64,000 nucleotides of DNA from Burkholderiales bacterium (GTDB lineage: Bacteria > Pseudomonadota > Gammaproteobacteria > Burkholderiales > JACQAP01). Positions 98-62,120 of this stretch are shown piece by piece (the first letter of the stretch is position 1; each line of letters starts with the position of its first letter). The notes below the pieces were generated by a model. It saw nothing but the letters and a program-made list of their open reading frames with translations, made no database searches and was not told the origin of the DNA. The position numbers and the translations under genes are program-made. The DNA lies in NCBI GenBank assembly GCA_035275265.1, contig DATENC010000004.1, positions 75,843 through 139,842 on the forward strand, read 5' to 3'.

Positions 98-302
98 GGG
101 AGGGACGAGGGAACAAGTGCAGGGGCGAGGGGCGAGGGACGAGGAGCGAGGGAAGGACTGTCTGTAGTAGCGGTGATTGAGGGATCAAGGAATTGGGTGA
201 TTAGCACCCATCTCTCAATCACCGCACTACTTGGTAACGCCAGTGAATGGCGAATGGTTAGTCGTTAGACTAAATCGCCCAATCGCCCAATCGTCCAATC
301 GC
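98..302. repeat. mosaic word-repeat locus R1 (G-heptads 98-156; GATTG-word palindrome 172-224; AATCGCCC octads 272-302)
   Basis: Tandem GAGGGAC/GAGGGGC words. GGTGATTGAG pairs with CTCAATCACC. An 8-bp stem hairpin lies just upstream at 67-92. Confidence 0.85.
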
Positions 303-408
303 AGGCGTCCCTCGGGCGATGCGCGATTGAATAGAATGGGACGACAATCCACAGTGCTACGCTGACTGCCACCGATTCCATCCCATCAACAACCGAGCAT
401 AGTCGACC

Positions 409-864
409 ATGATCCAGACCCGCCCCTTGTTTACCCTAACGGTGCAGGTTCCGCGCGTCGTCGATCTCGGCGACACGCCGAACGGGCATCGTCGCATCGC
501 CACCGTCTCGGGCGGCACGTTCAAGGGCGAACGCCTGAACGGCACGGTGCAGGCGCCGCCCGGTGGCGACTGGATCCTGGTGCGCACGGATGGCACGATG
601 GTGCTCGATGTGCGACTCACGCTCGAAACCGATGACAAGCAACTCGTGTACATGTCGTATCGCGGCCTGCGGCACGGACCGAAGGACGTGATAGCGCGCC
701 TGAATGCCGGCGAAGCGGTCGATCCGTCGACCTACTATTTCCGTACGACGCCGGTATTCGAAACCGCTTCGAAAAAGTACGACTGGCTCAACCGCATCGT
801 CGCCGTGGCCACGGGCAGGCGCGAAGCGAGCGGGCCGATCTATGACGTGTTCGAGGTGCTCTAG
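409..864 (+). CDS. DUF3237 family protein (UPF0311-like beta-barrel)
   Basis: 151-aa ORF with the motif series GDTPNGxR, GGTFxG, GGDW, FET and YDWLN typical of DUF3237. The next gene starts immediately after its stop. Confidence 0.8.
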   Translation: MIQTRPLFTLTVQVPRVVDLGDTPNGHRRIATVSGGTFKGERLNGTVQAPPGGDWILVRTDGTMVLDVRLTLETDDKQLVYMSYRGLRHGPKDVIARLNAGEAVDPSTYYFRTTPVFETASKKYDWLNRIVAVATGRREASGPIYDVFEVL

Positions 865-1836
865 GTGCGCTTCGTGATTGTCGGCGCTGGTGCGCTAGGG
901 TCCATCTATGCGGCTTACCTTGCCCGCGCTGGGCATGAGGTTTCACTGATTGCGCGTGGGGAGCGAGCCGCGGCACTTGCCAGGCGCGGCATCGGAATCG
1001 TGGGACAGGATTCGTTTTCAATCCCCTGCAATGTTGTCACGCAACCGGAAATGTTACGGGAGGCCGACGTGGTCGTCGTGGCCACCAAAACCTACGACAC
1101 CAAACCGGCGCTGACGCCGCTTCGCGGTCTCCGCGTCAAAAGCGCCTTTTCCGTGCAGAACGGCGTGCTCAAGAACCAGCAGCTCAGCGACGTTTTCGGG
1201 CCGCAGGCGACGCTCGGTGCGATCAGCATGATGGGTGGCAACGTCCTGCCAGCCGAAGGAGACCTGCCTGGCGCGGTGCGTTACAGCGTGGCCGGTCCGA
1301 CAACGATCGGTGAACCTGCGGGCGGTGATTCTTCACGTGCAAGAGAGATTGTGGAGACGTTCGAGAGTGCAGGCCTGAAGGCGCGCGCTGCGGACGACAT
1401 TACGTCGATCGAGTGGTCGAAGTTCGTCGCCTGGTCGGGTTACAGCACGTTAGCGGTAATGACGCGTCTTAACACGTGGCGCTTTCTGCTTGACACCGAT
1501 ACGGCCCTGATCGCCGCCCGCGTCATGCGAGAAACCGCTGCCGTCGCGATACGCCACGGAGTCACCCTGCAGGACAGCGGCTTTACCAGCCGGGATTTTA
1601 TCAACGCCAGCGAGGAAGACGCGGTCAAGGCGATACAAGCCCACGGCGAAAAAATGAGGACAAACGCACCCGACTTTCGACAATCGATCCTGCAGGACGC
1701 GGACCGCAACCGGCGCCTCGAGGTTAACGAGACCCTGAATTACACGATGGCGCTGGCAGCGAAACTGGGCGTTGCAACACCGACACTCGACCTGTGCTGT
1801 CGAATCCTCCGGGTAGTGTCACGTGCTGCCGAATAA
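865..1836 (+). CDS. 2-dehydropantoate 2-reductase family (PanE/ApbA-like) oxidoreductase
   Basis: GTG start. N-terminal Rossmann motif VIVGAGALGSIYAAYLARAGHEV and a C-terminal ApbA-like helix region (GVATPTLDL). Confidence 0.8.
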   Translation: MRFVIVGAGALGSIYAAYLARAGHEVSLIARGERAAALARRGIGIVGQDSFSIPCNVVTQPEMLREADVVVVATKTYDTKPALTPLRGLRVKSAFSVQNGVLKNQQLSDVFGPQATLGAISMMGGNVLPAEGDLPGAVRYSVAGPTTIGEPAGGDSSRAREIVETFESAGLKARAADDITSIEWSKFVAWSGYSTLAVMTRLNTWRFLLDTDTALIAARVMRETAAVAIRHGVTLQDSGFTSRDFINASEEDAVKAIQAHGEKMRTNAPDFRQSILQDADRNRRLEVNETLNYTMALAAKLGVATPTLDLCCRILRVVSRAAE

Positions 1837-1840
1837 GCGC

Positions 1841-2031
1841 AGAACTGCAGGGGCGAGGGACGAGGGGCGGGGGCGAGGGACGAGGGAAGAGGAAATAGGT
1901 AAAGGTGGGTTCGTATTTACCCTTCACCCCCACATGCACCCGGAGGGGTGTCACTCTTTTACTCATTTATGGCCGAAGGCCGGTATCCCCTTGCGGGGCA
2001 CTCATTCACTTTTTCACCCTTCACCCCTCAC
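1841..2031. repeat. mosaic word-repeat locus R2 (A-D-E-C modules) between convergent genes
   Basis: AGAACTGCAGGGGCGAGGGACGAGGGGCGGGGGCGAGGGACGAGGG, then CACATGCACCCGGAGGGGTGTCAC (1931-1954), GGCCGAAGGCCGGTATCCCCTTGCGGGGCA, and CCCTTCACCCCTCACC. Confidence 0.9.
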
Positions 2032-2034
2032 CAT

Positions 2035-4972: not shown

Positions 4973-4975
4973 GAC

Positions 4976-5240
4976 AGGGACGAGGGAAGAGGGACGAGGG
5001 GCGAGAGCCGAGAGGGACTAAGGGAGATCACAGCCGGAGGGTCAATGAGTGAAGGGTAAGAGAACCGGATACGAGTGACAAGTGACAAGTGACGGCGAAT
5101 GGCAGTGAAGGGTGTGACACCTCTCCGGGTGCATGTGAGGGTGCCCCGCAAGGGGATTCCCACAAGGGGATACCGGCCTTCGACCATAACCGGCCTTCGA
5201 CCATAACCAGCCTTTGGCCATAAATGAGTGAAGAATGAAC
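4976..5240. repeat. mosaic word-repeat locus R3, the largest, containing all module types
   Basis: G-heptads, GTGACAA words (5075-5092), reverse D motif 5113-5136, and reverse E block with a 17-nt unit CCGGCCTTCGACCATAA in 2 copies plus 1 degenerate copy. 5141-5201 is identical to the reverse complement of 18932-18992. Confidence 0.95.
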
Positions 5241-7118: not shown

Positions 7119-8732
7119 ATGCTGGACTGGATCAAGAAGGACAACGGCCGTCCGGACCATCCGCTGCGCAATCCAGCGGCGGCCGCAAAGCTGCTTGCCG
7201 AAGTACGCGACTTCGATCCACTCACGGCGCTGAACGAGCTGAGCGCGTGGCTTGATGCGGTCAAGGGCGCCCCCAACAACGACGAAACAGTCCGCGGCGA
7301 GATTCTGTCTCTGATCCAGGAAGCGAGCAGCGCGCACGTATCCGCGCTATTGGCGCAATTTCTCGTGCCGCACAAAGATCATCGGGCGCCACGCGGGTCG
7401 GACTGGAACACCCTTCACCGTTACGTTGTGGGGCTGACGGGCGCGCTCACCGTGTCGGCCAGAATTCTGCTGACACAATCGGCGACGACCCCTTCGCTCC
7501 AGCTTCCCGGAGCAGCAGGCGCCGCGCGGGGAATTCACGCCTCTCGCACACTGGCGAAAATCTATCTCGTTCGCTACTTCAGCGTCCCGCCCAAGCTGTG
7601 GCGGCTTGCGTATGCAGTTCATGCCGACGCGGAGAAGGCTGGTTGCGCAACAACGCCCGTTCGCATGCACGCCACACAGAAAACGTCAACGAGCGTGACA
7701 CAGGAGTTGCTGCGGATGCTGATGCTGCAGTCAAGTTCGCCGGAGATGATGTCGCCCGAACATATCGAGGTTGCCGATCATGTGATCGAGCAACTGGGCG
7801 GAGATTTTACGCTGCGCCCGCGCGGCGTCGCCGACAACCCTTTCTGTTTCGATCCGGCGAGCGACCTGGCACCGCACCGCGCGCCCGCACAGCCGCCCAA
7901 TCCGGATACCGGAATTCGCTACTTCGGGGCAGGAACGGGATACGATGCCCTGGATCGACTGCACAAGCAGTTGGTGTCGACAGGGATCGCGGATGGCAAG
8001 CTCTCGGGCAAGGACATTCCTGTCCACACGCAAATCTCGGTCATCAAGCAATTGCTCGCGTTCTGGGGTCAAGCGTCTCCGTACTTCCCACCTGCCCGCA
8101 CGCCTGCTACGGGCCCGCTGCAGGTCGTTCAGGGCTATGCACAGATCTGGCAGCACCTGTCGCACGTTGGATCCGCTGCCACCGAGCTCGCGCTGGTGGA
8201 AGACGGCGACGTCGCAACGCAGCCCCCGGAAACGTGGGCTCTCCACGACACTGGCGGCAACGAACTCGGCGCGGAGATTCCGCAGCGATCGAGCGACTGG
8301 GTGCGATGCGGCGACCTTGTCGGCATCACGATGCCTGGCAGTGACGAGTGCTGGCTCGGCGTGATCCGCTCCATGCATGCTGAGCCCGATCGCAAGCGGC
8401 ACGCCAACATCTACGTCATGAGCCACCTTCCGCAGGCGGTGGAGATGCGCCCGGTCATCGCGAAGGGCGAAGTGAACATCCTCTCGGAGGCTGCGGCGCG
8501 GCAGTTCGGCTTCAAGAGCGTGCACGCGATCATCGTGTCAGACGGTGCCGGAGCGCCGCAAAATGCGAACTTTCTGTTGCCACCCGGCAGCTGGGAGGAG
8601 GGCCGCGTTTACGAAGCGACGATTGGGGGAGCTCCGCATTTCCTCCGCAGCCTTCTCCTACTGCGGCACGGCGACGATTTTGTGCGGGCGACGTTCGAGT
8701 GGGTGCAGAAAAGCAGTGAAGGACAGGTGTGA
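7119..8732 (+). CDS. hypothetical protein (537 aa), no confident domain
   Basis: Long ORF with coding-like composition. Its stop TGA lies in the first word of repeat locus R4. The C-terminal part (WALHDTGGNELGAEI...CWLGVIRSM) is faintly PilZ-like, which is very tentative. Confidence 0.6.
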   Translation: MLDWIKKDNGRPDHPLRNPAAAAKLLAEVRDFDPLTALNELSAWLDAVKGAPNNDETVRGEILSLIQEASSAHVSALLAQFLVPHKDHRAPRGSDWNTLHRYVVGLTGALTVSARILLTQSATTPSLQLPGAAGAARGIHASRTLAKIYLVRYFSVPPKLWRLAYAVHADAEKAGCATTPVRMHATQKTSTSVTQELLRMLMLQSSSPEMMSPEHIEVADHVIEQLGGDFTLRPRGVADNPFCFDPASDLAPHRAPAQPPNPDTGIRYFGAGTGYDALDRLHKQLVSTGIADGKLSGKDIPVHTQISVIKQLLAFWGQASPYFPPARTPATGPLQVVQGYAQIWQHLSHVGSAATELALVEDGDVATQPPETWALHDTGGNELGAEIPQRSSDWVRCGDLVGITMPGSDECWLGVIRSMHAEPDRKRHANIYVMSHLPQAVEMRPVIAKGEVNILSEAAARQFGFKSVHAIIVSDGAGAPQNANFLLPPGSWEEGRVYEATIGGAPHFLRSLLLLRHGDDFVRATFEWVQKSSEGQV

Positions 8733-8826
8733 GGGACGAGGGGCGAGGGACGAGGGTAGTGACAAGTGACGAGTGACAAGTGATGGGCCTAGCGGCAGTA
8801 AGGGAAAAACGGGAAGAACTGCAGGC
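8714..8826. repeat. mosaic word-repeat locus R4 (G-heptads + GTGAC heptads)
   Basis: GAGGGACGAGGGGCGAGGGACGAGGG followed by AGTGACAAGTGACGAGTGACAAGTGA, then CTAGCGGCAGTAAGGGAAAA and GAACTGCAGG. Confidence 0.9.
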
Positions 8827-10438: not shown

Positions 10439-10496
10439 CGTGAATGAGTGAATGAGTGAAGGGTAAGAGCGAAAACGGAGACTAGGGGCGAGGAAG
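10439..10496. repeat. mosaic word-repeat locus R5 (GTGAATGA octads)
   Basis: GTGAATGAGTGAATGAGTGAAGGGTAAGAG...ACTAGGGGCGAGGAAG. Confidence 0.8.
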
Positions 10497-10636
10497 CTCC
10501 ATAAGCGCCTCACTGAACATCCCGCTTTTCAAAAGTCATCTGCCGGTCTTGTGGTTGCATCAAGGAACTGAACTTCGACGTGCCATTTATCACCACGTCT
10601 GCGTCAGGATTCTACTTCGATCTTGATGAGAAAAAC

Positions 10637-10737
10637 AGGGACGAGGGGAGAGGGAAGAACTGCAGGGCTAGAAGTTAGGAAAGGCTCTAGTGATGTTACC
10701 CTTCACCCTCACATGCACCCGGAGGGGTGTCACTTCT
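10637..10737. repeat. mosaic word-repeat locus R6 (A + D modules)
   Basis: AGGGACGAGGGGAGAGGGAAGAACTGCAGG, then ACCCTTCACCCTCACATGCACCCGGAGGGGTGTCAC (D motif at 10710-10733). Confidence 0.9.
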
Positions 10738-10769
10738 TCACGCCACCACCACGGCGCAAGGGGATGTCA

Positions 10770-11588
10770 ATGAAATCGATCAAGCGCGAGCAATACGAGG
10801 AAGCCCTCGAAGCACTGCACACCGAGCTGATCAACCTGCAGCACTGGATCATTGCCAATAACCAGCGCGTGGCCGTTATTTTCGAGGGGCGCGATGCCGC
10901 CGGCAAGGGCGGTGTGATCAAGGCCATCGAGGCACCGCTCAACGATCGCTACGTGCGCACCGTCGCGCTTTCGAAACCCAATGAACTTGAGCGCAGCCAG
11001 TGGTACTTCGAGCGCTACGCGGCCCAGTTGCCGAGTGCTGGTGAACTTGTCCTCTTCGATCGCAGCTGGTACAACCGCGCCGGTGTCGAACTGGTCATGG
11101 GCTTCTGCACACCCGCCCAACACAAGCAGTTCCTGAAGGACTGCCCGGCGTTCGAACGCCTGATCACCAACGACGGCCTGATCCTGCTCAAGTACTGGCT
11201 CTGCGTCGACCAGGAAGAACAGGAAGAACGCTTCGCCGAACGGGCGAAGGATCCCGCCAAGCGCTGGAAACTGTCTCCAATCGACATCAAGGCGCGCGAG
11301 AAATACGCCGCATACGGCAAAGTGCGCGACAGGATGCTGCGTGCGACCCACACCGATTACGCACCCTGGTACGTGGTCAACTTCAACGACCAGAAACGCG
11401 GTCGATTGAACCTGATCGATCACCTGCTCAAGCGGCTGCCTAAGCGCGAATCTCCGGCCCCGGAACTGTCTCTACCCAAACTCTCCGGCAAGCCTCTCAA
11501 GGAACACATCCCTCGCGGTTTTCTCATTGAAGAGGGTGTGTGGAGAGGGGTGAGGGGTGAGGGGAGGGCAGGGAACAGTGACAAGTGA
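10770..11588 (+). CDS. ppk2: polyphosphate kinase 2
   Basis: PPK2 motifs VIFEGRDAAGKGG (Walker A), FDRSWYNR and a lid region. Start at 10764 or 10770 (AAGGGG upstream). The last ~20 aa and the TGA stop are encoded by repeat R7. Confidence 0.85.
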   Translation: MKSIKREQYEEALEALHTELINLQHWIIANNQRVAVIFEGRDAAGKGGVIKAIEAPLNDRYVRTVALSKPNELERSQWYFERYAAQLPSAGELVLFDRSWYNRAGVELVMGFCTPAQHKQFLKDCPAFERLITNDGLILLKYWLCVDQEEQEERFAERAKDPAKRWKLSPIDIKAREKYAAYGKVRDRMLRATHTDYAPWYVVNFNDQKRGRLNLIDHLLKRLPKRESPAPELSLPKLSGKPLKEHIPRGFLIEEGVWRGVRGEGRAGNSDK

Positions 11589-11594
11589 CGAGTG
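11531..11594. repeat. mosaic word-repeat locus R7, inside the 3' end of ppk2
   Basis: GAGGGGTGAGGGGTGAGGGGAGGGCAGGGAACAGTGACAAGTGACGAGTGG. It provides the ppk2 C-terminal tail and TGA stop. Confidence 0.85.
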
Positions 11595-12389: not shown

Positions 12390-12505
12390 AAGGGACGAGG
12401 GGCGCCCCGCAAGGGGATTCCCACAAGGGGATACCGGCCTTCGACCATAAATGAGGGAAGTGTGGCCCCCTCGTCCCTCTCCACTCGTCCCTCGCCCCTC
12501 GTGGC
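12390..12505. repeat. mosaic word-repeat locus R8 (G arm, reverse E block, C arm)
   Basis: AGGGACGAGGGGCG, then GCCCCGCAAGGGGATTCCCACAAGGGGATACCGGCCTTCGACCATAAATGAG (12403-12455, a 47-nt match to R3), then CCCTCGTCCCTCTCCACTCGTCCCTCGCCCCTCG. Confidence 0.9.
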
Positions 12506-15305: not shown

Positions 15306-15392
15306 GGTGAAGGTGTGACACCCCTCCGGGTGCATGTGAGGGGGAAAGACCGGTGACGAGTGACAAGTGACGGGTGACAAGTGACCGGTGAC
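15306..15392. repeat. mosaic word-repeat locus R9 (reverse D + GTGAC heptads)
   Basis: GTGACACCCCTCCGGGTGCATGTG (15315-15338), then GGTGACGAGTGACAAGTGACGGGTGACAAGTGACCGGTGAC. Confidence 0.9.
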
Positions 15393-16240: not shown

Positions 16241-16410
16241 ACGAGGGAAGAGGGAAGAGGGAAGAGGGACGAGGGAAGAGGGAAGGGGAAAACCAATTCT
16301 CTTCACGAGGCGCCTTCACTGCTTTCCCCCGTCACTTGTCACCTGTCACCCGTCACTCCTTTTCCCTACTACCTTTCCCTCGCCCCTCTTCCCTCGTCCC
16401 TCGCCCCTAG
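16241..16410. repeat. mosaic word-repeat locus R10 (long G arm, reversed GTGAC words, complementary C arm)
   Basis: (GAGGGAA)n GAGGGACGAGGGAAGAGGG on the left. GTCACTTGTCACCTGTCACCCGTCAC in the centre. CCCTCGCCCCTCTTCCCTCGTCCCTCGCCCC on the right, whose reverse complement shares a ~19-nt match with the left arm. Confidence 0.9.
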
Positions 16411-16456
16411 CCAGTGCCCGCTATACTTGTGACATCCGCCTCGCTCTCCGTTCTCC

Positions 16457-18885: not shown

Positions 18886-19030
18886 AAAGGACAGGGGAGA
18901 GGGACGAGGGGTCACCCTTCACTCATTTATAGTCGAAGGCCGGTTATGGTCGAAGGCCGGTATCCCCTTGTGGGAATCCCCTTGCGGGGCACCCGCACAT
19001 GCACCCGGAGGGTGTCACGCCTTCACTTCT
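18876..19030. repeat. mosaic word-repeat locus R11 (forward E block x2 units + D motif)
   Basis: 18932-18992 is a perfect 61-nt reverse complement of 5141-5201. D motif at 18996-19018. Starts at the gspB-like TGA stop. Confidence 0.95.
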
Positions 19031-23855: not shown

Positions 23856-23924
23856 CCGATCCGTTGTGCTACCCCTTGAAGGGCACGCCGCATCGAGCGT
23901 CAGTACGCGACAGTCGCCTTTGTT

Positions 23925-23980
23925 TTCCCCTCGCCCCTTATGGTCGAAGACCGGTATCCCCTTGCGGGGCATCCCCGCAC
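23925..23980. repeat. mosaic word-repeat locus R12 (C-heptads + forward E block)
   Basis: TTTTCCCCTCGCCCCTTATGGTCGAAGACCGGTATCCCCTTGCGGGGCATCCCCGC. Confidence 0.8.
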
Positions 23981-25863: not shown

Positions 25864-25866
25864 AAC

Positions 25867-37289: not shown

Positions 37290-38866
37290 CGCCTAACGCG
37301 TTTCGCGCGCAGGCGATCGGGCGAAAGATAGATTTGGCGGTAAACCTCGAACGGCATGGTGTCCGCCGCTTCGATGCGCCGCTGTTCCTGCAGCGATTCT
37401 GTGGCCATGCTTTCGAAGCGGTTCTGCACGCGCGTTGCCAGCGGAAGTTCCAATAGCTCCTTTTTGTATTGCAGCGACCGGCTCAGCGCGAAACGAGGAA
37501 ACGAATTTGCGTAGCTTTGCGCCATCTCCTGCAGGACCCGCGCGGAGGGTGTGATCGACGACATCCCCAACGCGACCGCCGCTGTGGCCAGCGCATCGCC
37601 ATAGGCGCTGCCGCGGTGCGCGGCATCCAGCGCATCGGCGATCGGTACGTACTCGCGCAACAACTCGCCCCCCCAGTCGGCAGGGGACAGCGAATCATTG
37701 CCCCTGGTCAGGCGCACTTCCGGATCACGGCCTTGGCGCGCGACCAGAAGCTGGTTGCGCGCAAGCACGACGATCTCCGCCGGCGTGTCCGCCGGACCAT
37801 CGCTGAGCAGACAGTGCAGCAGGAAAATATCCAGGAACCGGATAGTCGTGGCGGTGATGCCGATCGGACAGAACGGATCCAGGTCCATCAAACGCACTTC
37901 CACGTATTCGACGCCGCGCTCGCGCAAAGCGTGCAGCGGCCGTTCGCCGGGACGGATCGGCCGCTTCGGCCGGATGGTGCCGTAGAACTCGTTCTCGATC
38001 TGCAACAGGGTAGTAGCGAGCTGACGATAGTCGTCGCCATCGCGGACGCCGATCTTTTCGTAATCGGGATAAGGGTGCGTCAGCGCGTCGGATAGCGAGT
38101 GCGCATAGGTATCCAGGTCGTTGTAGCTTACCGCCAGCGAGCCCTGCGCCGCGCTTTGGTAGCCGAGCGGACTCATGCGCAGCGATGTCGCCCACGGCAG
38201 ATACATGGTGCCCGGAACCAAGTGCTGCAGGCCGTGATCGCGGCCCGCAACGAAGCTGTTGCACACCGCCGGGGAGGCGCCGAACAGATACAGCAACAGC
38301 CAGGAGTGCCGGCGGAAGTTGCGGATCAGGGAAAAGTACGCGGCGTCCTGGAAACTCTGCACCGGGCCTGAAATGCCAGCGGCTTGCTGGAGGAGCGGCC
38401 AGGCCCGCTCCGGCATCGAGAAGTTGTAGTGGATCCCGGAAATGGTCTGCATCCGGGAGCCGTAGCGGTGCGACAGGCCGCTGCGATACACGGTCTTGGC
38501 CCGGCCGACGTTGGAGTTCCCAAAGCGGCCGAGCGGGATGTCCTTATCCGCGGGCAGGGTGCAGGGCATGCTGGCACACCAGAGCGTCTCGTCGCCGACA
38601 TGCCGATGGACAAACTGGTGTATCTGCTTCAACTCCTCGAGACAGCTTTCGACGTCCGCATGGACGCCGGTTATCAGCTCGAGCTGCGACTCGCTGAAGT
38701 CCGTGGTGATATGCGGATGGGTTAGCGGCGAGCCGAGTGCCCTCGGATGCGGGGTGCTGGCCAGCGTTCCATCCGGCCTGACGCGCAGGCTTTCTTTCTC
38801 AATGCCGCGCCGCAGGCCCCTGAGCACGTCGGGCGTGAGTGTATGGAGTCGGTTTCGTAGCGACAA
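37259..38866 (-). CDS. gshA: glutamate--cysteine ligase (E. coli type)
   Basis: N-terminal RGIEKESLRV and TDFSESQLELIT motifs with GshA length. The C-terminal RREGRGARGEG tail and the TGA stop are encoded by repeat R20. Confidence 0.9.
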   Translation of the reverse strand: MSLRNRLHTLTPDVLRGLRRGIEKESLRVRPDGTLASTPHPRALGSPLTHPHITTDFSESQLELITGVHADVESCLEELKQIHQFVHRHVGDETLWCASMPCTLPADKDIPLGRFGNSNVGRAKTVYRSGLSHRYGSRMQTISGIHYNFSMPERAWPLLQQAAGISGPVQSFQDAAYFSLIRNFRRHSWLLLYLFGASPAVCNSFVAGRDHGLQHLVPGTMYLPWATSLRMSPLGYQSAAQGSLAVSYNDLDTYAHSLSDALTHPYPDYEKIGVRDGDDYRQLATTLLQIENEFYGTIRPKRPIRPGERPLHALRERGVEYVEVRLMDLDPFCPIGITATTIRFLDIFLLHCLLSDGPADTPAEIVVLARNQLLVARQGRDPEVRLTRGNDSLSPADWGGELLREYVPIADALDAAHRGSAYGDALATAAVALGMSSITPSARVLQEMAQSYANSFPRFALSRSLQYKKELLELPLATRVQNRFESMATESLQEQRRIEAADTMPFEVYRQIYLSPDRLRAKRVRREGRGARGEG

Positions 38867-38908: not shown

Positions 38909-39020
38909 AAATGATTCGGTGATTGAATGATCGGGCGATTGGCGATCAGGCGGTTTGGAGATCAGGTAATTGAAAAACCACTTTCAATTGCTCAATCCCT
39001 CAATAACTCAATCGCCCACT
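38909..39020. repeat. GATTG-word imperfect palindrome (R21) in the gshA/helicase divergent region
   Basis: Central hairpin AATTGAAA/TTTCAATT (38968-38989). The outer GGGCGATTG (near 38933) pairs with CAATCGCCC (near 39010). Same word family as 172-302. Confidence 0.8.
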
Positions 39021-39077: not shown

Positions 39078-41213
39078 GTGCCGACCGCAACAGCCTTCGC
39101 ACGACTCAATTCCGCGCAGCGTGCGGCGGCGCGCTTTGGCGCTCGCGACCAGAGTGGCGGATTCCGCGCGGGGCCATTGCTCATCATCGCAGGGGCAGGC
39201 ACCGGCAAGACCAACACGCTGGCGCACCGGGTTGCGCACCTGATTCTGGAGGGGGTGAGCCCGGAACGCATCCTGCTGCTCACTTTCACACGGCGCGCGG
39301 CGCAGGAGATGACGCGGCGGGCGCAACGGATCGTGGCTACGGTGCTGGCAGAGACGGCCGGCAAAGGGGGCACGGGTGCCGAGATCGCAGTGAAGCTACC
39401 CTGGTCGGGAACCTTTCACTCCATCGCCAACCGGCTGATCCGGTGCCATGCGGCCCGTGTTGGACTCGATGCGAACTTCAGCGTACTGGATCGTGGCGAT
39501 GCGGCCGACCTGATGGACGTGGTGCGCCATGAATTGGGCCTGTCAAGGACCGAGAAGCGCTTTCCGCGCAAGGACACCTGCCTCGCCATCTATTCACACC
39601 GGGTCAATACCCAGGGGCTGCTCGCCGAAACGCTGGCCACGGTATTTCCGTGGTGTGCGGACTGGGAGAAAGAACTCACCGGACTGTATCGCGCCTATGT
39701 GGAGCGCAAGCTCGCCAACCAGGCGCTCGATTACGACGATCTGCTGCTGTACTGGCACACGATGGCTTCCGACCCATCGCTCGCCGAAGAGATGGCCGCG
39801 CAGTTCGACCATATCCTGGTGGATGAGTACCAGGATACGAATGCACTTCAGGCAGAAATCCTCAAGGCGCTGCGACCCACCGGCGCGGACGTGACCGTGG
39901 TGGGCGACGACGCACAATCGATCTACTCGTTTCGCGCTGCCACGGTCGAGAACATTCTGGACTTTCCGGGCCAGTACACGCCGCCGGCAACCGTAGTGAC
40001 CCTGGAAGAAAACTTTCGCTCTACGCAAGGTGTGCTGGATGCGGCGAACGCGCTGACCGCCGAAGGCAGCCGCCAATACCGCAAAGTGCTGCGCGGCGTG
40101 CGCGGGGCCGGAGAGCGGCCACACTACGTAACGGTGTCGGACGATCAGGCGCAGGCGGACTACGTTGTGGCTCGGGTGTTGCAGACGCGCGAGCGGGGGG
40201 TGGCTCTCAAACGCCAGGCGGTGCTGTTCCGCAGCTCGCACCACAGCGACGTGCTTGAACTCGAGCTGGTCCGGCGCAACATCCCTTATGTGAAATACGG
40301 TGGGCTGAAATTCCTCGAAGCCGCTCACGTCAAGGACATGCTGGCAGTGCTGCGCTGGGCGGACAATCCGAAGAACCGTGTCAGCGCCTTTCGCGCCCTG
40401 CAACTGTTGCCGGGCATGGGGCCGGCGAACGCGGCGCGACTCTTCACGCACTTCGAAGCCGCTGGCCACGACTGGCGTGCGCTCGCGGCCTTCAATGCTC
40501 CGCCGCTCGCGGCCGAGGGATGGCCACCCTTCGCGGAACTCATGGCAACGCTGGGAGCGCCCGAAGGGCCATGGCAGGGGCAGGTCGGTCGCGTGCGCGA
40601 ATGGTACGAGCCGCACCTGGAGCGTCTCTACGAAGCGGCACAGGTGCGCGCGGGTGACCTGCTGCAGCTCGAACGCATTGCGCCGCAATTCCCGACCAGG
40701 GAGCAATTCCTGAGCGACCTCGCGCTCGACCCGCCGCAGGCGAGTAGCGACTTGGCCGGCGCGCCGTTGCTGGACGAGGACTACCTGGTGCTCTCAACCA
40801 TCCATTCGGCCAAGGGCCAGGAGTGGGACGCTGTGCACGTGCTCAATGTGGCGGACGGCAATTTCCCGTCGGAATTCACCACCGGCGACGCCGGGCAGAT
40901 CGAGGAAGAACGTCGTCTGTTGTACGTGGCGATGACTCGGGCGAAGACCGACCTTCACGTCATTGCGCCGCTGCGCTATTACATTTCTCAGCAGCCGCGA
41001 CGGGGAGATGCGCATGTGTACGGCGCGAAGAGCCGCTTCATGACCCGCGCAGTGCTCGCGCAGTTCCAGGAGGATACCTGGCCCCAGCCCGAGGCGGGCG
41101 TCACGCCATCTCGCGCCGCGCCCCCGGTGGATGTTGCCGGGAGACTGCGCGGGATGTGGGTTAACGGCGGTGAAGGGGGAAGGGTGAAGAGTGAAGGGGA
41201 AATGAGTGAGTGA
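39078..41213 (+). CDS. UvrD/Rep/PcrA family ATP-dependent DNA helicase
   Basis: GTG start. AGAGTGKT Walker A, LLLTFTRRAAQEM, DEYQDTN, and C-terminal helicase motifs (SIHSAKGQEW, YVAMTRA). The tail is encoded by R22. Confidence 0.9.
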   Translation: MPTATAFARLNSAQRAAARFGARDQSGGFRAGPLLIIAGAGTGKTNTLAHRVAHLILEGVSPERILLLTFTRRAAQEMTRRAQRIVATVLAETAGKGGTGAEIAVKLPWSGTFHSIANRLIRCHAARVGLDANFSVLDRGDAADLMDVVRHELGLSRTEKRFPRKDTCLAIYSHRVNTQGLLAETLATVFPWCADWEKELTGLYRAYVERKLANQALDYDDLLLYWHTMASDPSLAEEMAAQFDHILVDEYQDTNALQAEILKALRPTGADVTVVGDDAQSIYSFRAATVENILDFPGQYTPPATVVTLEENFRSTQGVLDAANALTAEGSRQYRKVLRGVRGAGERPHYVTVSDDQAQADYVVARVLQTRERGVALKRQAVLFRSSHHSDVLELELVRRNIPYVKYGGLKFLEAAHVKDMLAVLRWADNPKNRVSAFRALQLLPGMGPANAARLFTHFEAAGHDWRALAAFNAPPLAAEGWPPFAELMATLGAPEGPWQGQVGRVREWYEPHLERLYEAAQVRAGDLLQLERIAPQFPTREQFLSDLALDPPQASSDLAGAPLLDEDYLVLSTIHSAKGQEWDAVHVLNVADGNFPSEFTTGDAGQIEEERRLLYVAMTRAKTDLHVIAPLRYYISQQPRRGDAHVYGAKSRFMTRAVLAQFQEDTWPQPEAGVTPSRAAPPVDVAGRLRGMWVNGGEGGRVKSEGEMSE

Positions 41214-41214
41214 C
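41164..41214. repeat. word-repeat locus R22 (GTGAAGGG words) inside the helicase 3' end and trxC start
   Basis: ACGGCGGTGAAGGGGGAAGGGTGAAGAGTGAAGGGGAAATGAGTGAGTGACC. Confidence 0.75.
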
Positions 41215-41640
41215 CGTATTCACATTGTCTGCCCGCATTGCACGGCCACGAACCGTGTTACGCCGGAGCGGGTCGGCGACAAACCGAAGTGCGGTAAATG
41301 CCATAAACCCCTCTTCGATGGCCACCCCATCGAATTGGACGAAGCCGGCTTCGAACGCCATATCTCTAGCAATGATGTTCCGGTGGTGGTGGATTTCTGG
41401 GCGCCCTGGTGCGGGCCATGCCTGGTGATGGCGCCTGAATACGAGAAGGCGGCAGCGATGTTGGAACCGAATGCGCGCTTCGCCAAGGTCAACACCGAAG
41501 AAGCGCAAGGTCTTGCGCAGCGTTTCAGTATTCGCAGCATTCCGACCATGGCCCTGTTTCGCGGCGGCCGTGAGATAGCGCGTCAATCTGGCGCGATGGG
41601 TGCAGCGGCGATCGCCGACTGGGTGCGTGCCAACGCCTGA
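41206..41640 (+). CDS. trxC: thioredoxin 2 (zinc-finger N-terminal extension)
   Basis: CPHC..x..CGKC zinc motif followed by the WAPWCGPC active site. The GTG start overlaps the helicase stop. Confidence 0.9.
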   Translation: MSDRIHIVCPHCTATNRVTPERVGDKPKCGKCHKPLFDGHPIELDEAGFERHISSNDVPVVVDFWAPWCGPCLVMAPEYEKAAAMLEPNARFAKVNTEEAQGLAQRFSIRSIPTMALFRGGREIARQSGAMGAAAIADWVRANA

Positions 41641-60002: not shown

Positions 60003-60031
60003 ACAGTGGAGAGGGGTGAGGGGCGAGGGGA
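60003..60031. repeat. short G-heptad locus R23
   Basis: ACAGTGGAGAGGGGTGAGGGGCGAGGGGA, directly after the 59996 stop. Confidence 0.7.
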
Positions 60032-60114
60032 AAATCCGATTGCGCCTTACGACAATGAACGGTAAGGGAAAACCCCGGCGCTGGGAAAGACGGGCAACAG
60101 GGGTAAAGTAACGC

Positions 60115-61206
60115 ATGGCGAGCCCATTACTCGACGTGTCCTGGGACCAATGTCTGCTCGAGCCGGCGCCCGACCGGCAGGCCGAGGCCGCGTTGCGCCG
60201 TGAAACCGGTTCCGCGCCGGGCTGGATACGCTATTTCCTGAGCTGTCCGTGGCTACCCAGGGCTGCAATTCGCCTCGCCATAGACAACAAACTGCTGGTG
60301 GACCTCGATTTCCCGACTGTGGATCTGATCGGTCTGGTAGTGAGCCAGGAGAACGCTTGTCGCTATTGCTACGCGGTCACGCGTATGACGTTGCGCGTCC
60401 TCGGCATGAGCGAGGAACGCATGCAACAACTCGAGCAACGCCTTGCCAGCGGCGATCTTGAGCCCAAGGCTGTTGCTGCAATACGCTTCGCGCGCCGTAT
60501 GACGCGCGCCAGTCCGCTGGTCACTTCTCAGGACCTCGAGTCCCTGCGCGGGACCGGCTACAGCGACGCGCAGATACGCGAAATCGCGTTCTGTGTCGCC
60601 TTCATAGCATTCTTCAACCGGATCTCCACCATTCCCGCGCTGCCGCCACATTCGTGGGAGCAACTCGCCGACCGGTGGTTCATGCGCGCGTTCCGACCGT
60701 TGTTCGCGCGCTCGGTACGCGGCTGGCGCAAGAGAGGGCAACCGGCGTCTTTCCCGCAACCGCCGACGGGACCGTTCGCCGGACTGCTGCTACAGTTCGA
60801 GAGCTCGCCCATCGGTCCCGTGCTCGAATCTGTGCTCAAGGACTTGTGGGCATCCCCTATCCTGAGCCGCCGCGCCAAGGCGCTGATGTTCGCGGTCATC
60901 GGCCGCGGCCTCGACTGCCAAAACTCCAGTGAGGAGATAGCCGGCGTTCTTGAAGCCGAGGGCCTGACGCCAGCCGACGCGGAGCAGATCCTCGCGCACC
61001 TCGGTGGCCCGGGCCTGGACGCCAGGGAGACCGCGCTGCTCGCGTTTGCGCGCGACACCATCCGCTACGAACCGATCCAGATCCAACGCCGTGCACGCGA
61101 TCTGCGCGAGCAGCTGTCAGCGCCGCAGTTCGTAGAGGCGGTCGGTGTGGCGGCTCTGGCGAATTCCATGTGCCGGCTGTGCGCAGTGCTTCCGCGCCGG
61201 CCGTGA
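60115..61206 (+). CDS. AhpD-like/carboxymuconolactone decarboxylase family protein (two-domain)
   Basis: SQENACRYCY motif (CxxC-like) and a second CMD-like half. Confidence 0.6.
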   Translation: MASPLLDVSWDQCLLEPAPDRQAEAALRRETGSAPGWIRYFLSCPWLPRAAIRLAIDNKLLVDLDFPTVDLIGLVVSQENACRYCYAVTRMTLRVLGMSEERMQQLEQRLASGDLEPKAVAAIRFARRMTRASPLVTSQDLESLRGTGYSDAQIREIAFCVAFIAFFNRISTIPALPPHSWEQLADRWFMRAFRPLFARSVRGWRKRGQPASFPQPPTGPFAGLLLQFESSPIGPVLESVLKDLWASPILSRRAKALMFAVIGRGLDCQNSSEEIAGVLEAEGLTPADAEQILAHLGGPGLDARETALLAFARDTIRYEPIQIQRRARDLREQLSAPQFVEAVGVAALANSMCRLCAVLPRRP

Positions 61207-62036
61207 GTTACGCCTTCGCGCTCGTTCTGATCGTGTTAGCCGCTGCGGCGGCGGTGTTCGCCTGGCAGCAGCATCGGCTGCGCGAACTCCGCGCGCGCGT
61301 CGAGTCGTCCGCAGTCGAGCTGCAGCGCTTGCAGCAGTCGTGCGCGCTGCTCGCGCCTGCCGGCGTGGTCGAACGCCTGTTCTCCGACGGCGCAGAAAGC
61401 ATCGCCGAGCACAAGGTGTTTACCGCCATGTTCACCGACCTGGTGGGCTACACTGCGCTCGCTGAAAGGCTCGATCCGAAAACGCTGGCGGGCGTGCTGA
61501 ACGGCTACTTCCAACTCGTAAGCGACAGCGTCGTCGATCACCGTGGTCGCGTGGGCACGTTCCTCGGCGACGGCATCCTCATCTTCTTCGGCGCGCTCGA
61601 CCCGAACCCCTGGCAGTGCGACGATGCGGTACAGGCGGCGCTCGCCATCCGTGCCGGGCTCGAGCGTTACAACCGCGAACTCGAAAACGATGGGCTGCCG
61701 CGTATCGCCATCGGTGTCGGTATCCACCGCGGGCCGGGGCTCGCCGGACTCATCGGCAGCCGCGACCGGCGCGAGTACACGGCGGTCGGCCCTACGCTGA
61801 ACCTCGCCGCGCGCGTGCAGGCGCTCACGCGTGAGCATGGCCACGATATCCTGCTTACCGAATCTGTTCGCGAGCAACTCGATCCGCGCTTCGAACTGGC
61901 GCCCATGCGCGCTGTGCCGGTCAAGGGCATCGGCGAACCGGTCGTCACCTATGCCGTGATCGCCGGAAGGGAAGAGAAGGCCAGGATGAAAGTTGCCGAG
62001 ACGAGGGAGGAGGTGCGAACTACGAGGGTCGAGTGA
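61170..62036 (+). CDS. class III adenylate/guanylate cyclase with an N-terminal TM anchor
   Basis: TM (AFALVLIVLAAAAAVFAW), a coiled linker, and the cyclase core FTAMFTDLVGYT...GDGILIFFG...GIHRG. Start is GTG 61170 or GTG 61203, the latter in a GTGA overlap with the upstream stop. Confidence 0.85.
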   Translation: MPAVRSASAPAVSYAFALVLIVLAAAAAVFAWQQHRLRELRARVESSAVELQRLQQSCALLAPAGVVERLFSDGAESIAEHKVFTAMFTDLVGYTALAERLDPKTLAGVLNGYFQLVSDSVVDHRGRVGTFLGDGILIFFGALDPNPWQCDDAVQAALAIRAGLERYNRELENDGLPRIAIGVGIHRGPGLAGLIGSRDRREYTAVGPTLNLAARVQALTREHGHDILLTESVREQLDPRFELAPMRAVPVKGIGEPVVTYAVIAGREEKARMKVAETREEVRTTRVE

Positions 62037-62073
62037 ATTTCTAGTGCATTTGGAGATTTTGTGGTTTTATACA

Positions 62074-62120
62074 ACCCTCGCCCTTCGCCCCTCGTTCCTC
62101 TCTTCTCGCCCCTTACCCCT
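62074..62120. repeat. C-strand heptad locus R24
   Basis: CCCTCGCCCTTCGCCCCTCGTTCCTCTCTTCTCGCCCCTTACCCCT, between the cyclase and DUF2652 genes. Confidence 0.8.

What the first reader, a model, noticed from the sequence alone, without database searches (positions are those of the whole stretch)
98..62120. Very dense family of mosaic intergenic repeats built from 7-8 nt tandem words
The same small vocabulary recurs at 23 intergenic sites, in shuffled order and in both orientations.
(A) GAGGGAC/GAGGGGC/GAGGGAA heptads.
(B) GTGACAA/GTGACGA heptads.
(C) GTGAATGA/GTGAAGGG octads.
(D) A 23-24 nt motif CACATGCACCCGGAGGGGTGTCAC. Forward copies are at 1931-1954, 10710-10733, 18996-19018 and 33599-33621. 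Reverse copies are at 5113-5136 and 15315-15338.
(E) A hairpin block GGCCGAAGGCCGGTATCCCCTTGCGGGGCA.
(F) GATTGGG/GATTGAG heptads.
A linker containing CTGCAGG also recurs. In the first 41 kb there is roughly one locus every 2 kb. No transposase or REP-associated tyrosine transposase lies in the window. The modular shuffling resembles enterobacterial BIME/REP mosaics, but the words and the strict 7-8 nt periodicity are different, and I do not recognise the family.
Basis: seen in the sequence. Interest (0 to 1): 0.85.

Follow-up and report, generated by a model that had tools for sequence, protein, structure and literature searches.

The report
Polar heptamer-repeat mosaics between genes
The spaces between genes of this uncultured soil betaproteobacterium are packed with fast-changing arrays of 7-8-letter DNA words plus two small hairpin modules, a lineage-specific example of a repeat type already known from Xanthomonas, Burkholderia and cyanobacteria, whose function is still unsolved.

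Summary
About 25 intergenic sites in the window carry tandem 7-8 nt words, with two non-tandem hairpin modules embedded in them: D (24 nt) and E (a 17-nt unit plus a 14-nt unit). 84% of array bases lie in the 18% of the window that is non-coding. The same vocabulary occurs in at least 5 soil betaproteobacterial MAGs and about 95 soil metagenome contigs. It is absent from Rfam, PLSDB plasmids and IMG/VR.

It is not a REP/BIME member. No RAYT or transposase was found, and D and E lack the REP architecture. It belongs to the known but unexplained class of intergenic heptameric simple-sequence repeats: Xanthomonas/Nostoc G-rich heptamers, Burkholderia long SSRs, cyanobacterial STRR, and TAACTGA repeats.

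It follows the polarity rule published for that class. The G-rich strand reads outward from the adjacent ORF end in 91 of 118 arrays, and G-rich-then-C-rich pairs outnumber the reverse 20 to 1.

- Close strains differ by whole units (7, 14, 17 or 21 nt).
- Orthologous spacers carry different words.
- Module D is conserved letter-perfect across species.

Most likely the arrays grow by slippage, spread by copy-choice between arrays, and are filtered by orientation-dependent selection. Paired arrays form long hairpins in 3' flanks that lack canonical terminators. I rate it a new member of a known kind, of moderate interest.

The parts
98..313 (.). Locus 1. A words GAGGGAC/GAGGGGC on + (98-155). 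F-word hairpin (165-232). C-like words (243-257). F words reversed, AATCGCCC x3.8 (273-302). Short A word reversed (306-313).
   Evidence: TRF; sequence. The F hairpin folds at -40.5 kcal/mol, z = -7.0.
1841..2034 (.). Locus 2, between convergent genes. Linker AGAACTGCAGG. A+ array (1849-1892). C words reversed (1916-1930). D+ (1931-1954). E+ (1968-2000). C words reversed (2001-2032), abutting the stop of the minus-strand gene.
4973..5240 (.). Locus 3, between divergent genes. A+ array starts 4 nt from the start codon of the minus-strand MFS gene (4976-5005). Then C+, B+ (5074-5093), C+, and D reversed (5114-5137, 1 mismatch). E reversed has its 14-nt unit x2 (5145-5171) and its 17-nt unit x3 (5172-5223). 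C+ follows.
8716..8826 (+). Locus 4. GTGAGGG/ACGAGGG array overlapping the stop of ORF 7119-8732. B+ array (8758-8783). CTAGCGGCAG module. Linker AGAACTGCAGG (8815-8825).
10440..10463 (+). Locus 5. GTGAATGA/GTGAAGGG octads, 10 nt from the start of minus-strand gene 9857-10429.
10636..10745 (.). Locus 6. A+ words. Linker AGAACTGCAGG (10656-10666). C words reversed. D+ (10710-10733), 36 nt upstream of the PPK2 start codon.
11534..11592 (+). Locus 7. GGGTGAG x4.4 followed by B words. It forms the last codons of the PPK2 ORF; the Pfam domain ends at residue 227 of 272.
12390..12505 (.). Locus 8. A+ arm directly after the stop codon. E reversed (12405-12450). A-reversed arm (12462-12505). The arms pair.
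   Evidence: Fold -56.4 kcal/mol, z = -2.0.
15307..15392 (.). Locus 9. C+ word. D reversed (15315-15338). B+ array GTGACAA/GTGACGA x4.7 (15348-15392), abutting the start of the SDR gene.
16243..16412 (.). Locus 10. GAGGGAA x7, 3 nt after the stop codon (16243-16293). C words reversed. B words reversed (16331-16356). A words reversed x5 (16376-16412). Forms a long imperfect hairpin.
   Evidence: Fold -78.5 kcal/mol, z = -3.7. Only sub-threshold miRNA-like Rfam hits.
18890..19030 (.). Locus 11, between convergent genes. A+ words. C words reversed. E+ with the 17-nt unit x2 and the 14-nt unit x2 (18927-18990). D+ deletion variant (18996-19018). C words reversed.
23915..23975 (.). Locus 12. A words reversed, then E+ in its GGTC...GACC version (23942-23971), just downstream of the dctM stop.
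25724..25866 (.). Locus 13. CCCCTCTC words and their complement, forming a G/C-polar inverted repeat between dctQ and dctP.
26988..27033 (+). Locus 14. B+ array (GTGACAA x2.7), then GGGCGA/GAGGGGC words.
27938..28031 (+). Locus 15. A+ array overlapping the stop codon (27938-27965). B-like words. CTAGCGGCAG module. C+ word. GGGGAAT x2.3.
29771..29908 (.). Locus 16, between convergent genes. GTGAAGGA/GTGAATGA octads x5.6 from the stop of the + gene (29771-29837). A words reversed (29873-29908), forming the last codons of minus-strand ORF 29849-31261.
33538..33621 (.). Locus 17. A+ words. GGGGATT x3.4 (33552-33575). C words reversed. D+ deletion variant (33599-33621).
34539..34621 (.). Locus 18, between convergent genes. 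A+ arm and A-reversed arm, forming a 13-bp perfect core stem.
   Evidence: Fold -48.1 kcal/mol, z = -4.7.
36881..36911 (+). Locus 19. Degenerate G-rich words (AGGGAAGGGCGAA x2.3), 11 nt after the stop codon.
37162..37291 (.). Locus 20. A+ array x9.9 (37162-37229). F+ words (37231-37250). A-reversed arm (37262-37291), which supplies the last codons of gshA. Forms a 24-bp stem.
   Evidence: Fold -64.9 kcal/mol, z = -5.3.
38910..39013 (.). Locus 21, between divergent gshA and uvrD/rep. F-type octads on + (38910-38941) and reversed (38991-39013).
41169..41217 (+). Locus 22. GGTGAAG/GAAGGGG words and a B word, inside the last codons of uvrD/rep and the first codons of trxC.
60011..60030 (+). Locus 23. 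GAGGGGC x2.9, 14 nt after a stop codon.
62075..62113 (-). Locus 24. [quoted passage not shown]

Best explanation
This is a lineage-specific family of intergenic simple-sequence-repeat mosaics. It is the same kind as the G-rich heptamer repeats of Xanthomonas and Nostoc, the long SSRs of Burkholderia, and cyanobacterial STRRs.

**Proposed mechanism (inferred steps marked)**
- Arrays of 7-8 nt words grow and shrink by whole units. I infer replication slippage.
- The short hairpin modules D (21-24 nt) and E (a 17-nt unit plus a 14-nt unit) are always embedded in words. I infer that they spread from spacer to spacer by copy-choice or gene conversion between dispersed arrays, not by a locally encoded transposase.
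- I infer that selection then filters orientation. Reading outward from any ORF end, the strand is G-rich. A transcript heading into a gene therefore reads C-rich, G-poor words.
- Where both arms are present they form 13-30 bp hairpins. I infer that these, with the C-rich arms, act as orientation-dependent transcription barriers or 3'-end structures, in flanks where I found no canonical terminators.
- D is held constant across species. I infer that its sequence is recognised by something, either a protein or an RNA-level interaction.
For: **Shown**
- Period 7 dominates: 172 of about 390 arrays in 416 kb, with period 8 next at 54.
- Arrays are intergenic: 84% of array bases in the window and 92% in the loci.
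- Polarity is 24/30 in the window and 64:18 within 50 nt of ORF ends in independent loci. It is 91:27 overall, p = 3e-9.
- Adjacent opposite arrays run G-rich then C-rich 20 times, and the reverse once.
- D+ lies a median 62 nt from the gene on its 3' side, whichever strand that gene is on.
- Contig pairs 90-99.9% identical, including several above 99%, differ by indels of 7 (x5), 14 (x5), 21 and 17 nt (x2, the E unit). These are exactly whole words.
- Orthologous spacers carry different words or modules while keeping the polarity.
- D and its flanking words are identical in four species, although the rest of the spacer is unalignable.
- E's first stem exists as GGCC/GGCC (15 copies) and GGTC/GACC (10 copies). 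There are 5 copies of the G.T intermediate and only 1 with a C.A mismatch.
- Paired arrays fold with z-scores from -3.7 to -7.
- 0 of 18 array-bearing 3' flanks have a canonical intrinsic terminator, against 7 of 34 array-free flanks.
- No transposase or RAYT was found in the window or in about 350 kb of related loci.
- The same polarity rule and the same intergenic bias are published for GGGAATC and GGGGAYT repeats (PMC4692102).
Against: - Slippage alone does not explain how 24-34 nt modules reach new spacers. Copy-choice is inferred and was not observed.
- The exact conservation of D across species argues for a specific recognition function that I could not identify.
- The terminator exclusion rests on small numbers (about p = 0.04). 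Only about a third of loci have both arms.
- The cause of the polarity is unknown. It holds for words without SD-like motifs (35:13) and without G runs (41:12), so neither SD avoidance nor G-quadruplexes alone explains it.
- My gene calls are home-made, so distances to starts are approximate.
- The related loci were selected because they contain D.
Confidence: 0.6

Rival explanations
1. REP/BIME-like system. D and/or E are the recognition hairpins of a single-strand HUH transposase (a RAYT or an IS200/IS605-type TnpA) encoded elsewhere in the genome. This enzyme disseminates them. The heptad arrays are secondary.
For: - D and E are small hairpin-bearing units that are near-identical in all copies.
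- They are extragenic and are conserved across species.
- They are gained and lost at orthologous sites.
- E shows one compensatory stem change.
- RAYTs are typically single-copy, so absence from 64 kb is expected.
Against: - The stems are only 4-5 bp.
- There is no GTAG-type 5' tetranucleotide.
- There are no inverted doublets (REPIN) and no alternating BIME arrangement.
- D and E are always co-oriented with the flanking words and obey the same ORF-boundary polarity. A transposase would not impose this.
- No RayT homologue occurs in the window plus about 350 kb of related DNA.
Confidence: 0.15
2. Adaptive polar insulators. The arrays are selected because, read towards a gene, they give C-rich, G-poor, unstructured RNA. 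Such RNA loads termination factor Rho or otherwise stops RNA polymerase. Every gene boundary is thus protected from incoming read-through or antisense transcription.
For: - Polarity is independent of the neighbouring gene's strand.
- The asymmetry is 20:1.
- In their C orientation all the main words have 0-1 G and 2-5 C.
- The inward C-G skew is +0.22 to +0.28 in array segments, against about 0 elsewhere.
- Array-bearing flanks lack intrinsic terminators.
- Polarity does not depend on G runs or SD-like motifs.
Against: - The same polarity is reported for Nostoc (PMC4692102). Cyanobacteria lack Rho (my own knowledge), so Rho cannot be the general cause.
- C-rich arrays directly upstream of start codons would attenuate the gene's own mRNA.
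- There are no expression data.
- The geometric length distribution looks neutral.
Confidence: 0.15
3. G-quadruplex regulatory elements. The G-rich arrays are kept because four G-tracts fold into G4 DNA or RNA that modulates transcription or translation.
For: - There are 16 canonical G4 motifs in the window against 2.3 expected, and at least 11 of them lie in the arrays.
- In-vitro G4 formation was shown for the analogous Xanthomonas and Nostoc repeats (PMC4692102).
Against: - There is no preference for four tracts. Run lengths fall geometrically: 3 tracts 70, 4 tracts 17, 5 tracts 10.
- Words with no G3 run (GTGACAA, GTGAATGA, GATGAAG) show the same polarity, 41:12.
Confidence: 0.07
4. Arrays of binding sites for a single-strand nucleic-acid-binding protein with a 6-8 nt footprint. 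Candidates are a cold-shock-domain protein, or CsrA on the ANGGA motif inside GAGGGAC.
For: - The 7-8 nt periodicity matches the heptamer footprint of CspB discussed in PMC4679880.
- The A words contain AGGGA.
Against: - Many unrelated words share the behaviour.
- No specific protein is implicated.
- Words turn over at a fixed site.
Confidence: 0.03

Closest known systems
G-rich heptameric repeats GGGAATC (Xanthomonas) and GGGGA(C/T)T (Nostoc), Rehm et al. 2015, PMC4692102
   Same: - Tandem 7-nt G-rich units with a strong intergenic bias.
- The G-rich strand is the sense strand just after stop codons and the antisense strand just upstream of ORFs.
- Inverted copies can form stem-loops.
- Length and sequence vary between close relatives at the same gene pair.
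- There is no link to particular gene functions.
- One word here (GGGGATT, 33552-33575) is essentially the Nostoc unit.
   Different: - Here many different words are mixed in one locus.
- Octads occur as well as heptads.
- No four-unit preference is seen.
- Non-G-run words behave the same.
- Non-tandem hairpin modules D and E are embedded in the arrays.
- The host is a betaproteobacterium.
Long simple sequence repeats with 5-11 nt units, heptanucleotides predominant, richest genomes including four Burkholderia (2007 survey as summarised in PMC4679880)
   Same: - Heptamer periodicity predominates.
- Hosts have high G+C content and are free-living.
- The hosts include Betaproteobacteria.
- Polymerase slippage is the proposed origin.
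   Different: That survey treats arrays as independent SSRs. Here a shared vocabulary, hairpin modules and a boundary grammar recur at many sites and across species.
TAACTGA heptamer direct repeats of marine Beggiatoaceae, Microcystis and some Bacteroidetes (MacGregor 2015, PMC4679880)
   Same: - Intergenic tandem heptamers placed close to ORF ends.
- In Microcystis and Bacteroidetes they are mixed with other heptamers.
- The word carries stop codons in all frames in one orientation, as do the GTGA-type words here.
   Different: - One AT-rich word dominates.
- It lies mostly directly upstream of start codons, in forward orientation.
- No hairpin modules are described.
Cyanobacterial STRR heptamers and the 21-27 nt small dispersed repeats (SDR) found within them (Mazel 1990; Elhai 2008; from my own knowledge, the SDR paper was not available)
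   Same: - A small set of heptamer words is reused genome-wide.
- Very short, near-identical, hairpin-capable dispersed units sit inside heptamer arrays.
- No associated transposase is known.
   Different: - The sequences are unrelated and the phylum is different.
- I could not check the SDR definitions against D and E.
REP / BIME / REPIN elements with RAYT transposases (E. coli, Pseudomonas; PMC3116915)
   Same: - Extragenic location and high copy number.
- A mosaic of a few motifs.
- Hairpin-forming.
- Frequent at 3' ends of genes.
   Different: - There is no 20-40 nt palindrome and no GTAG-type head.
- There are no inverted doublets and no RAYT was found.
- The bulk of each locus is tandem 7-8 nt words, which REP/BIME elements lack.

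Membership tests
Intergenic heptameric SSRs (Rehm 2015 / long-SSR class) | Head-to-tail tandem units of 7 nt (5-11 nt in the long-SSR definition), several copies | tested here: met
   24 period-7 and 6 period-8 arrays in the window. 172 and 54 in 416 kb of window plus loci.
Intergenic heptameric SSRs (Rehm 2015 / long-SSR class) | Over-representation in non-coding DNA | tested here: met
   84% of array bases lie in the 18% non-coding part of the window. 92% in related loci.
Intergenic heptameric SSRs (Rehm 2015 / long-SSR class) | G-rich strand is sense within about 50 nt after stop codons and antisense within about 50 nt upstream of ORFs | tested here: met
   Window: 15+9 arrays obey the rule against 3+3 that do not. 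Loci: 41+23 against 15+3. Overall 91:27, p = 3e-9.
Intergenic heptameric SSRs (Rehm 2015 / long-SSR class) | Unit-number and sequence variation between close relatives at the same gene pair | tested here: met
   Indels of 7, 14 and 21 nt in arrays between contigs 90-99.9% identical, several above 99%. Different words at orthologous spacers.
Intergenic heptameric SSRs (Rehm 2015 / long-SSR class) | Preference for four units (the G4 minimum) | tested here: not met
   Runs of G-tracts: 3 tracts 70, 4 tracts 17, 5 tracts 10, 6 tracts 3. The decline is monotonic. This feature belongs to the G4 interpretation, not to the SSR class as such.
Intergenic heptameric SSRs (Rehm 2015 / long-SSR class) | G-quadruplex formation of the repeat in vitro | not testable with these tools
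   Only sequence motifs could be counted: 16 G4 motifs against 2.3 expected.
REP / BIME / REPIN | Unit is a 20-40 nt imperfect palindrome with a conserved GTAG-type 5' tetranucleotide | tested here: not met
   D has a 5-bp stem (CACCC/GGGTG) with a GGAG loop. E has two 4-bp stems. There is no GTAG head.
REP / BIME / REPIN | Units occur as inverted doublets or alternating orientations with defined linkers | tested here: not met
   Most loci have a single D. Tandem D-D occurs in direct orientation, and only one inverted pair was seen (L057).
REP / BIME / REPIN | A cognate RAYT (Y1 HUH transposase) gene in the genome, often flanked by the units | tested here: inconclusive
   None in the window by Pfam. 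None in the window plus related loci by phmmer with E. coli RayT. No complete genome was available.
MITE | Defined element of about 100-400 bp with terminal inverted repeats, target-site duplication and a conserved interior | tested here: not met
   The inverted arms are variable-length word arrays. The interiors differ from locus to locus and between orthologues. No target-site duplication was seen.
Known RNA families (Rfam 15) | Match at or above a family's gathering score | tested here: not met
   0 hits at gathering threshold over the whole window. There are only sub-threshold miRNA-like matches to the 16240-16410 hairpin.
Cyanobacterial STRR / SDR | The specific STRR heptamers and SDR consensus sequences | not tested
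   The defining paper was not available. The sequences I recall are unrelated, so the resemblance is in organisation only.

The most novel reading that the evidence does not exclude
The mosaics may not be passive slippage products. They could be the visible output of an active, boundary-directed process. In this reading:
- A conserved factor recognises module D, which is letter-perfect across species and sits at a fixed position next to the gene it faces.
- The C-rich, inward-reading words together form a genome-wide polar insulation grammar that stops transcription entering any gene.
- The words are continually rewritten while the grammar is kept.

Equivalently, D and E could be very small mobile elements moved by an enzyme not yet known.
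Probability: 0.15. Interest if true: 0.75.

Novelty: new member of a known kind. Interest (0 to 1): 0.45.

Why it matters
Intergenic heptamer repeats have been known since 1990 (STRR). They have been re-described in Burkholderia, Xanthomonas, Nostoc and Beggiatoaceae without any accepted function or mechanism.

This lineage offers an unusually clean case:
- The density is very high, about one locus per 2 kb.
- There is a 20:1 structural polarity that is independent of gene strand.
- Whole-unit polymorphism is visible between strains.
- Words are replaced at fixed positions.
- An embedded 24-nt module is conserved across species.

Together these separate what is variable (the words) from what is kept (polarity, position, module D). 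That narrows the hypotheses to orientation-dependent effects on transcription or strand-specific structure. G-quadruplex folding or Shine-Dalgarno mimicry alone cannot account for the polarity.

Practically, these repeats break short-read assemblies of soil MAGs. One orthologous spacer is an N-run. They also add variable C-terminal tails to annotated proteins.

Tried and rejected
- **Rfam.** I ran it at gathering score on the whole window and at E <= 1 on 1-20000. Nothing real came back.
- **tRNA/tmRNA scan.** None found.
- **Other collections.** BLAST of the D/E core against PLSDB plasmids and an exact scan of IMG/VR gave no match.
- **Literature search for the words themselves.** Only unrelated primer hits came back.
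- **RAYT/transposase.** Pfam on about 60 ORFs and phmmer with E. coli RayT found none. This is not decisive without a complete genome.
- **Four-unit (G4) preference.** Absent.
- **Word network.** I asked whether all heptads form one mutational network. The largest component held 40 of 48 words, but random words of the same composition give 33 on average and up to 44. The test is uninformative.
- **Replication-strand explanation for the excess of G-rich-on-plus arrays in the window.** I dropped it once the ORF-boundary rule explained the orientations.
- **Horizontally acquired island as the reason for the array-free stretch 41.7-59.9 kb.** The gene content is ordinary, so this is unsupported.
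- **CRISPR, DNA-uptake sequences, attC and CRP-type operators.** I considered these for D and rejected them on architecture.
- **Source contig of the window.** It is not in the exact-protein index.
- **The Elhai 2008 SDR paper.** It could not be read.

Full report
**1.

Module D (CACATGCACCCGGAGGGGTGTCAC) has three exact copies and one one-mismatch copy in the window, with none expected by chance.

Module E lies at 1971-2000 and 23942-23971. Reverse and internally duplicated copies lie at 5145-5223, 12405-12450 and 18927-18990.

Tandem Repeats Finder lists 24 period-7 and 6 period-8 arrays in the window. No other period comes close.

I built a codon-usage gene map and checked it with Pfam on about 60 ORFs. 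Against this map, 845 of 1009 array bases (84%) fall in the 18% of the window that is non-coding. The rest are the last codons of ORFs that run into an array. Examples are the tails of PPK2, gshA, uvrD/rep and ORF 29849-31261.

The density is about one locus per 2 kb from 98 to 41217, with two more loci at 60011 and 62075.

- CTGCAGG alone is common inside genes (25 hits). Only AGAACTGCAGG is repeat-specific (3 hits).
- Several words (GATTGGG, GATTGAG, GTGACGA) are unremarkable as single heptamers. They stand out only as tandem runs.

**2. Where it comes from and how widespread it is**

The window is ordinary chromosomal DNA of about 60% G+C. Its genes include gshA, uvrD/rep, trxC, a TRAP transporter, PPK2, GGDEF and histidine-kinase genes. 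There is no transposase, integrase or RAYT.

An exact scan for D in one genome per GTDB species found eight loci in five soil MAGs. They are labelled Betaproteobacteria, Alcaligenaceae or Pseudomonadota.

A 20-mer of D found 98 stretches in JGI soil metagenomes. Three of these are unrelated chance matches, and one of them is the 5' end of a tRNA.

Around D the same words recur in all these contigs. One subgroup uses a different dialect, with CATCCTT heptads and D ending in ...GTCAT.

The closest public relatives share 94% (gshA protein, GCA_964453015.1) and 88% (GCA_031406075.1) identity with the window. Many fetched loci are 84-94% identical in the genes they share with the window.

Nothing matches in Rfam, in PLSDB plasmids or in IMG/VR. 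A full-text search for the words returns only unrelated primers.

**3. Anatomy and grammar**

Across 416 kb (window plus loci) there are 172 period-7 and 54 period-8 arrays. The commonest words are GTGAAGG, GATGAAG, GAGGGGC, GAGGGAC, GGGGAAT and GTGACAA.

The key regularity is polarity with respect to the nearest ORF end:
- The G-rich strand is the sense strand just downstream of stop codons.
- The G-rich strand is the antisense strand just upstream of start codons.

Put another way, reading 5'->3' outward from any ORF end gives the G-rich strand. The counts are:
- 24 of 30 in the window.
- 64 against 18 within 50 nt of ORF ends in the independent loci.
- 91 against 27 overall, p = 3e-9.

When two arrays of opposite orientation share a spacer, the order on either strand is G-rich then C-rich 20 times, and the reverse once.

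D is always co-oriented with the C-rich version of the C and B words. It lies a median 62 nt from the gene on its 3' side and 160 nt from the other gene. The neighbouring gene is on the same strand in 43 cases and on the opposite strand in 53. Orientation is therefore set by geometry relative to the coding boundary, not by the direction of the neighbouring gene.

Where both arms are present they form long imperfect hairpins:

| Region | Free energy (kcal/mol) | z-score |
|---|---|---|
| 16236-16420 | -78.5 | -3.7 |
| 37160-37290 | -64.9 | -5.3 |
| 34530-34625 | -48.1 | -4.7 |
| 160-235 | -40.5 | -7.0 |

Regions holding only D and E fold no better than shuffles.

**4. Dynamics**

Contig pairs 90-99.9% identical differ by indels of 7 nt (x5), 14 nt (x5) and 21 nt. 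Several of these pairs are above 99% identical. These indels are exact words inside arrays. Two indels of 17 nt equal one unit of E. This is whole-unit gain and loss on a strain time scale.

At greater distance the content of a spacer is replaced while its polarity is kept:
- **3' end of gshA.**
  - In the 94% relative it is followed by GTGAAGG-type words.
  - In the window it is followed by a GAGGGAC array, F words and the complementary arm.
  - In the 88% relative it is followed by a short C-word hairpin plus B words.
  - In the 80% relative it is followed by GATTGGT-type arms.
- **Protein tails.** The gshA homologues accordingly have different C-terminal tails after ...DRLRAKRV.
- **dctM 3' flank.** It carries D in three relatives, but only A words plus E in the window.
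- **SDR gene 3' flank.** It has an A+/A- hairpin in the window and C words plus E plus a D-like unit in a 94%-identical relative. A third genome has an unrelated 9-mer inverted array there.

D behaves differently from the words. In an orthologous spacer of four species, D and the adjacent words are identical, while the remaining spacer cannot be aligned and the flanking gene is only partly conserved. Secondary D copies deviate by at most 1-3 changes.

The first stem of E exists as GGCC/GGCC (15 copies) and GGTC/GACC (10 copies). There are five G.T intermediates and one C.A mismatch. The two versions sit in different word contexts, so this is probably one compensatory event. It does indicate a strand-specific stem.

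**5. What it is**

The features match a described, still unexplained class.

[quoted passage not shown] Four Burkholderia genomes were among the richest, and polymerase slippage over a 7-nt contact was the proposed cause.

PMC4692102 describes GGGAATC (Xanthomonas) and GGGGAYT (Nostoc) repeats with these properties:
- Intergenic bias.
- Location within 50 nt downstream of stop codons on the sense strand, or upstream of ORFs on the antisense strand.
- Inverted copies able to form stem-loops.
- Extensive variation between close relatives at the same gene pair.
- No identified function.

All of these are met here. Their four-unit preference is not. Runs of G-tracts fall geometrically: 3 tracts 70, 4 tracts 17, 5 tracts 10.

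The embedding of short, near-identical hairpin units inside heptamer arrays recalls the small dispersed repeats reported in Nostoc. I state this from memory, because the paper was unavailable.

The REP/BIME comparison fails on architecture:
- The stems are only 4-5 bp.
- There is no GTAG head.
- There are no inverted doublets.

No RAYT was found either, though without a complete genome this last point is inconclusive.

**6. How it most likely works**

Shown:
- Units are gained and lost whole.
- Words and modules turn over at fixed sites.
- Polarity is maintained.
- D is conserved.
- Paired arms fold.
- None of the 18 array-bearing 3' flanks in the window has a canonical hairpin-plus-T-run terminator, against 7 of 34 array-free flanks.

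Inferred:
- Arrays arise and change by replication slippage.
- Hundreds of dispersed arrays share words, so stalled synthesis can switch template between loci. That would carry embedded modules (D, E, linkers) along, which explains the shuffled mosaics without a transposase.
- Selection removes arrays in the wrong orientation.

The selective agent is not G-quadruplex folding or Shine-Dalgarno mimicry alone. Polarity is as strong for words without G runs (41:12) and without SD-like motifs (35:13).

The common denominator is strand composition. Transcripts leaving a gene read G-rich words. Transcripts entering a gene read C-rich, G-poor words, with an inward C-G skew of +0.22 to +0.28 against about 0 in array-free flanks.

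I consider an orientation-dependent barrier to transcription the most plausible cellular effect. It could be a hairpin where both arms exist, or a Rho-loading C-rich tract otherwise. I hold this at low confidence. Nostoc shows the same rule, and cyanobacteria lack Rho (my own knowledge).

The cross-species invariance of D implies sequence-specific recognition by something I could not identify.

**7. Verdict**

The finding is a real and striking repeat family, and its specific vocabulary appears undescribed. Its kind and its main regularities are already in the literature.

What this case adds:
- The 20:1 arm-order asymmetry.
- The demonstration that polarity is independent of G-run and SD-like content.
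- Word replacement at fixed positions.
- A conserved 24-nt module inside the arrays.

I rate it a new member of a known kind, interest 0.45. There is a 15% chance that an active, boundary-directed mechanism or a very small mobile element underlies it. That would be considerably more interesting.

Noticed in passing
L029:231-503 and L037:452-721: Module D, with flanking C words, sits in the 23S-5S rRNA spacer of a related organism. It is antisense to the rRNA, so the module is certainly transcribed there and tolerated inside an rRNA operon.
   Followed up: partly
window 41700-59900: This 18-kb stretch has no word arrays at all. It contains all the window's strong canonical intrinsic terminators (about 46490-46530, 46810-46850, and the bidirectional one at 51290-51340) and a cluster of stress-type genes (CsbD, DUF3618, holin-X-like). 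The gene content is otherwise ordinary, and the reason for the contrast is unexplained.
   Followed up: partly
window 37259-37300; proteins P0001-P0013: gshA and its homologues have different C-terminal tails after the conserved ...DRLRAKRV (KV, MGNG, NGTTGKKVKGEG...). The ORF runs into whichever word array follows, so repeat turnover rewrites protein ends. The same happens to PPK2 (11534-11588), uvrD/rep (41169-41213) and ORF 29849-31261.
   Followed up: partly
L110:1860-1950 (approximate): In the closest public MAG, the gshA-uvrD spacer is a run of N. This is where the window has F-word arrays. The N-run may be an assembly gap or the collection's own masking; if a gap, short-read assemblies break at these repeats.
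   Followed up: no
L104 (around the D match): The 20-mer of D matches, apparently by chance, the junction of a promoter and the 5' end of a tRNA (GGAGGGGTGTCCGAGTGG...) in an unrelated AT-rich contig. The 3' half of D is identical to the first 11 nt of that tRNA.
   Followed up: no
window 45555-45862: A 75-nt tandem repeat (2.5 copies, 45608-45796) lies inside an uncalled proline-rich ORF. A small lysine-rich ORF at about 45354-45540 precedes it. Neither was in my gene map.
   Followed up: no
window 4973-5005, 10430-10463, 16413-16456, 62075-62129: Genes whose start codon abuts a C-rich (sense) array show no recognisable Shine-Dalgarno sequence. This concerns the starts at 4972(-), 10429(-), 16457(+) and 62130(+). 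The start calls are my own and unverified.
   Followed up: no
One is CACCGCCGTTAGGCGCTTTCCCC; the window carries reverse, diverged copies (GGCCTAGCGGCAGT...). Another is a module of about 35 nt, GGCAGAACTGAYCGATTGAAGRGGCCAAAGGCCC, in L038, L082, L093 and L097.
   Followed up: no
window 8854-9765 (-): This 303-aa ORF has no Pfam match and a poor codon-usage score. It sits in an otherwise empty 1.1-kb gap next to a repeat locus. It may be a foreign or spurious gene.
   Followed up: no
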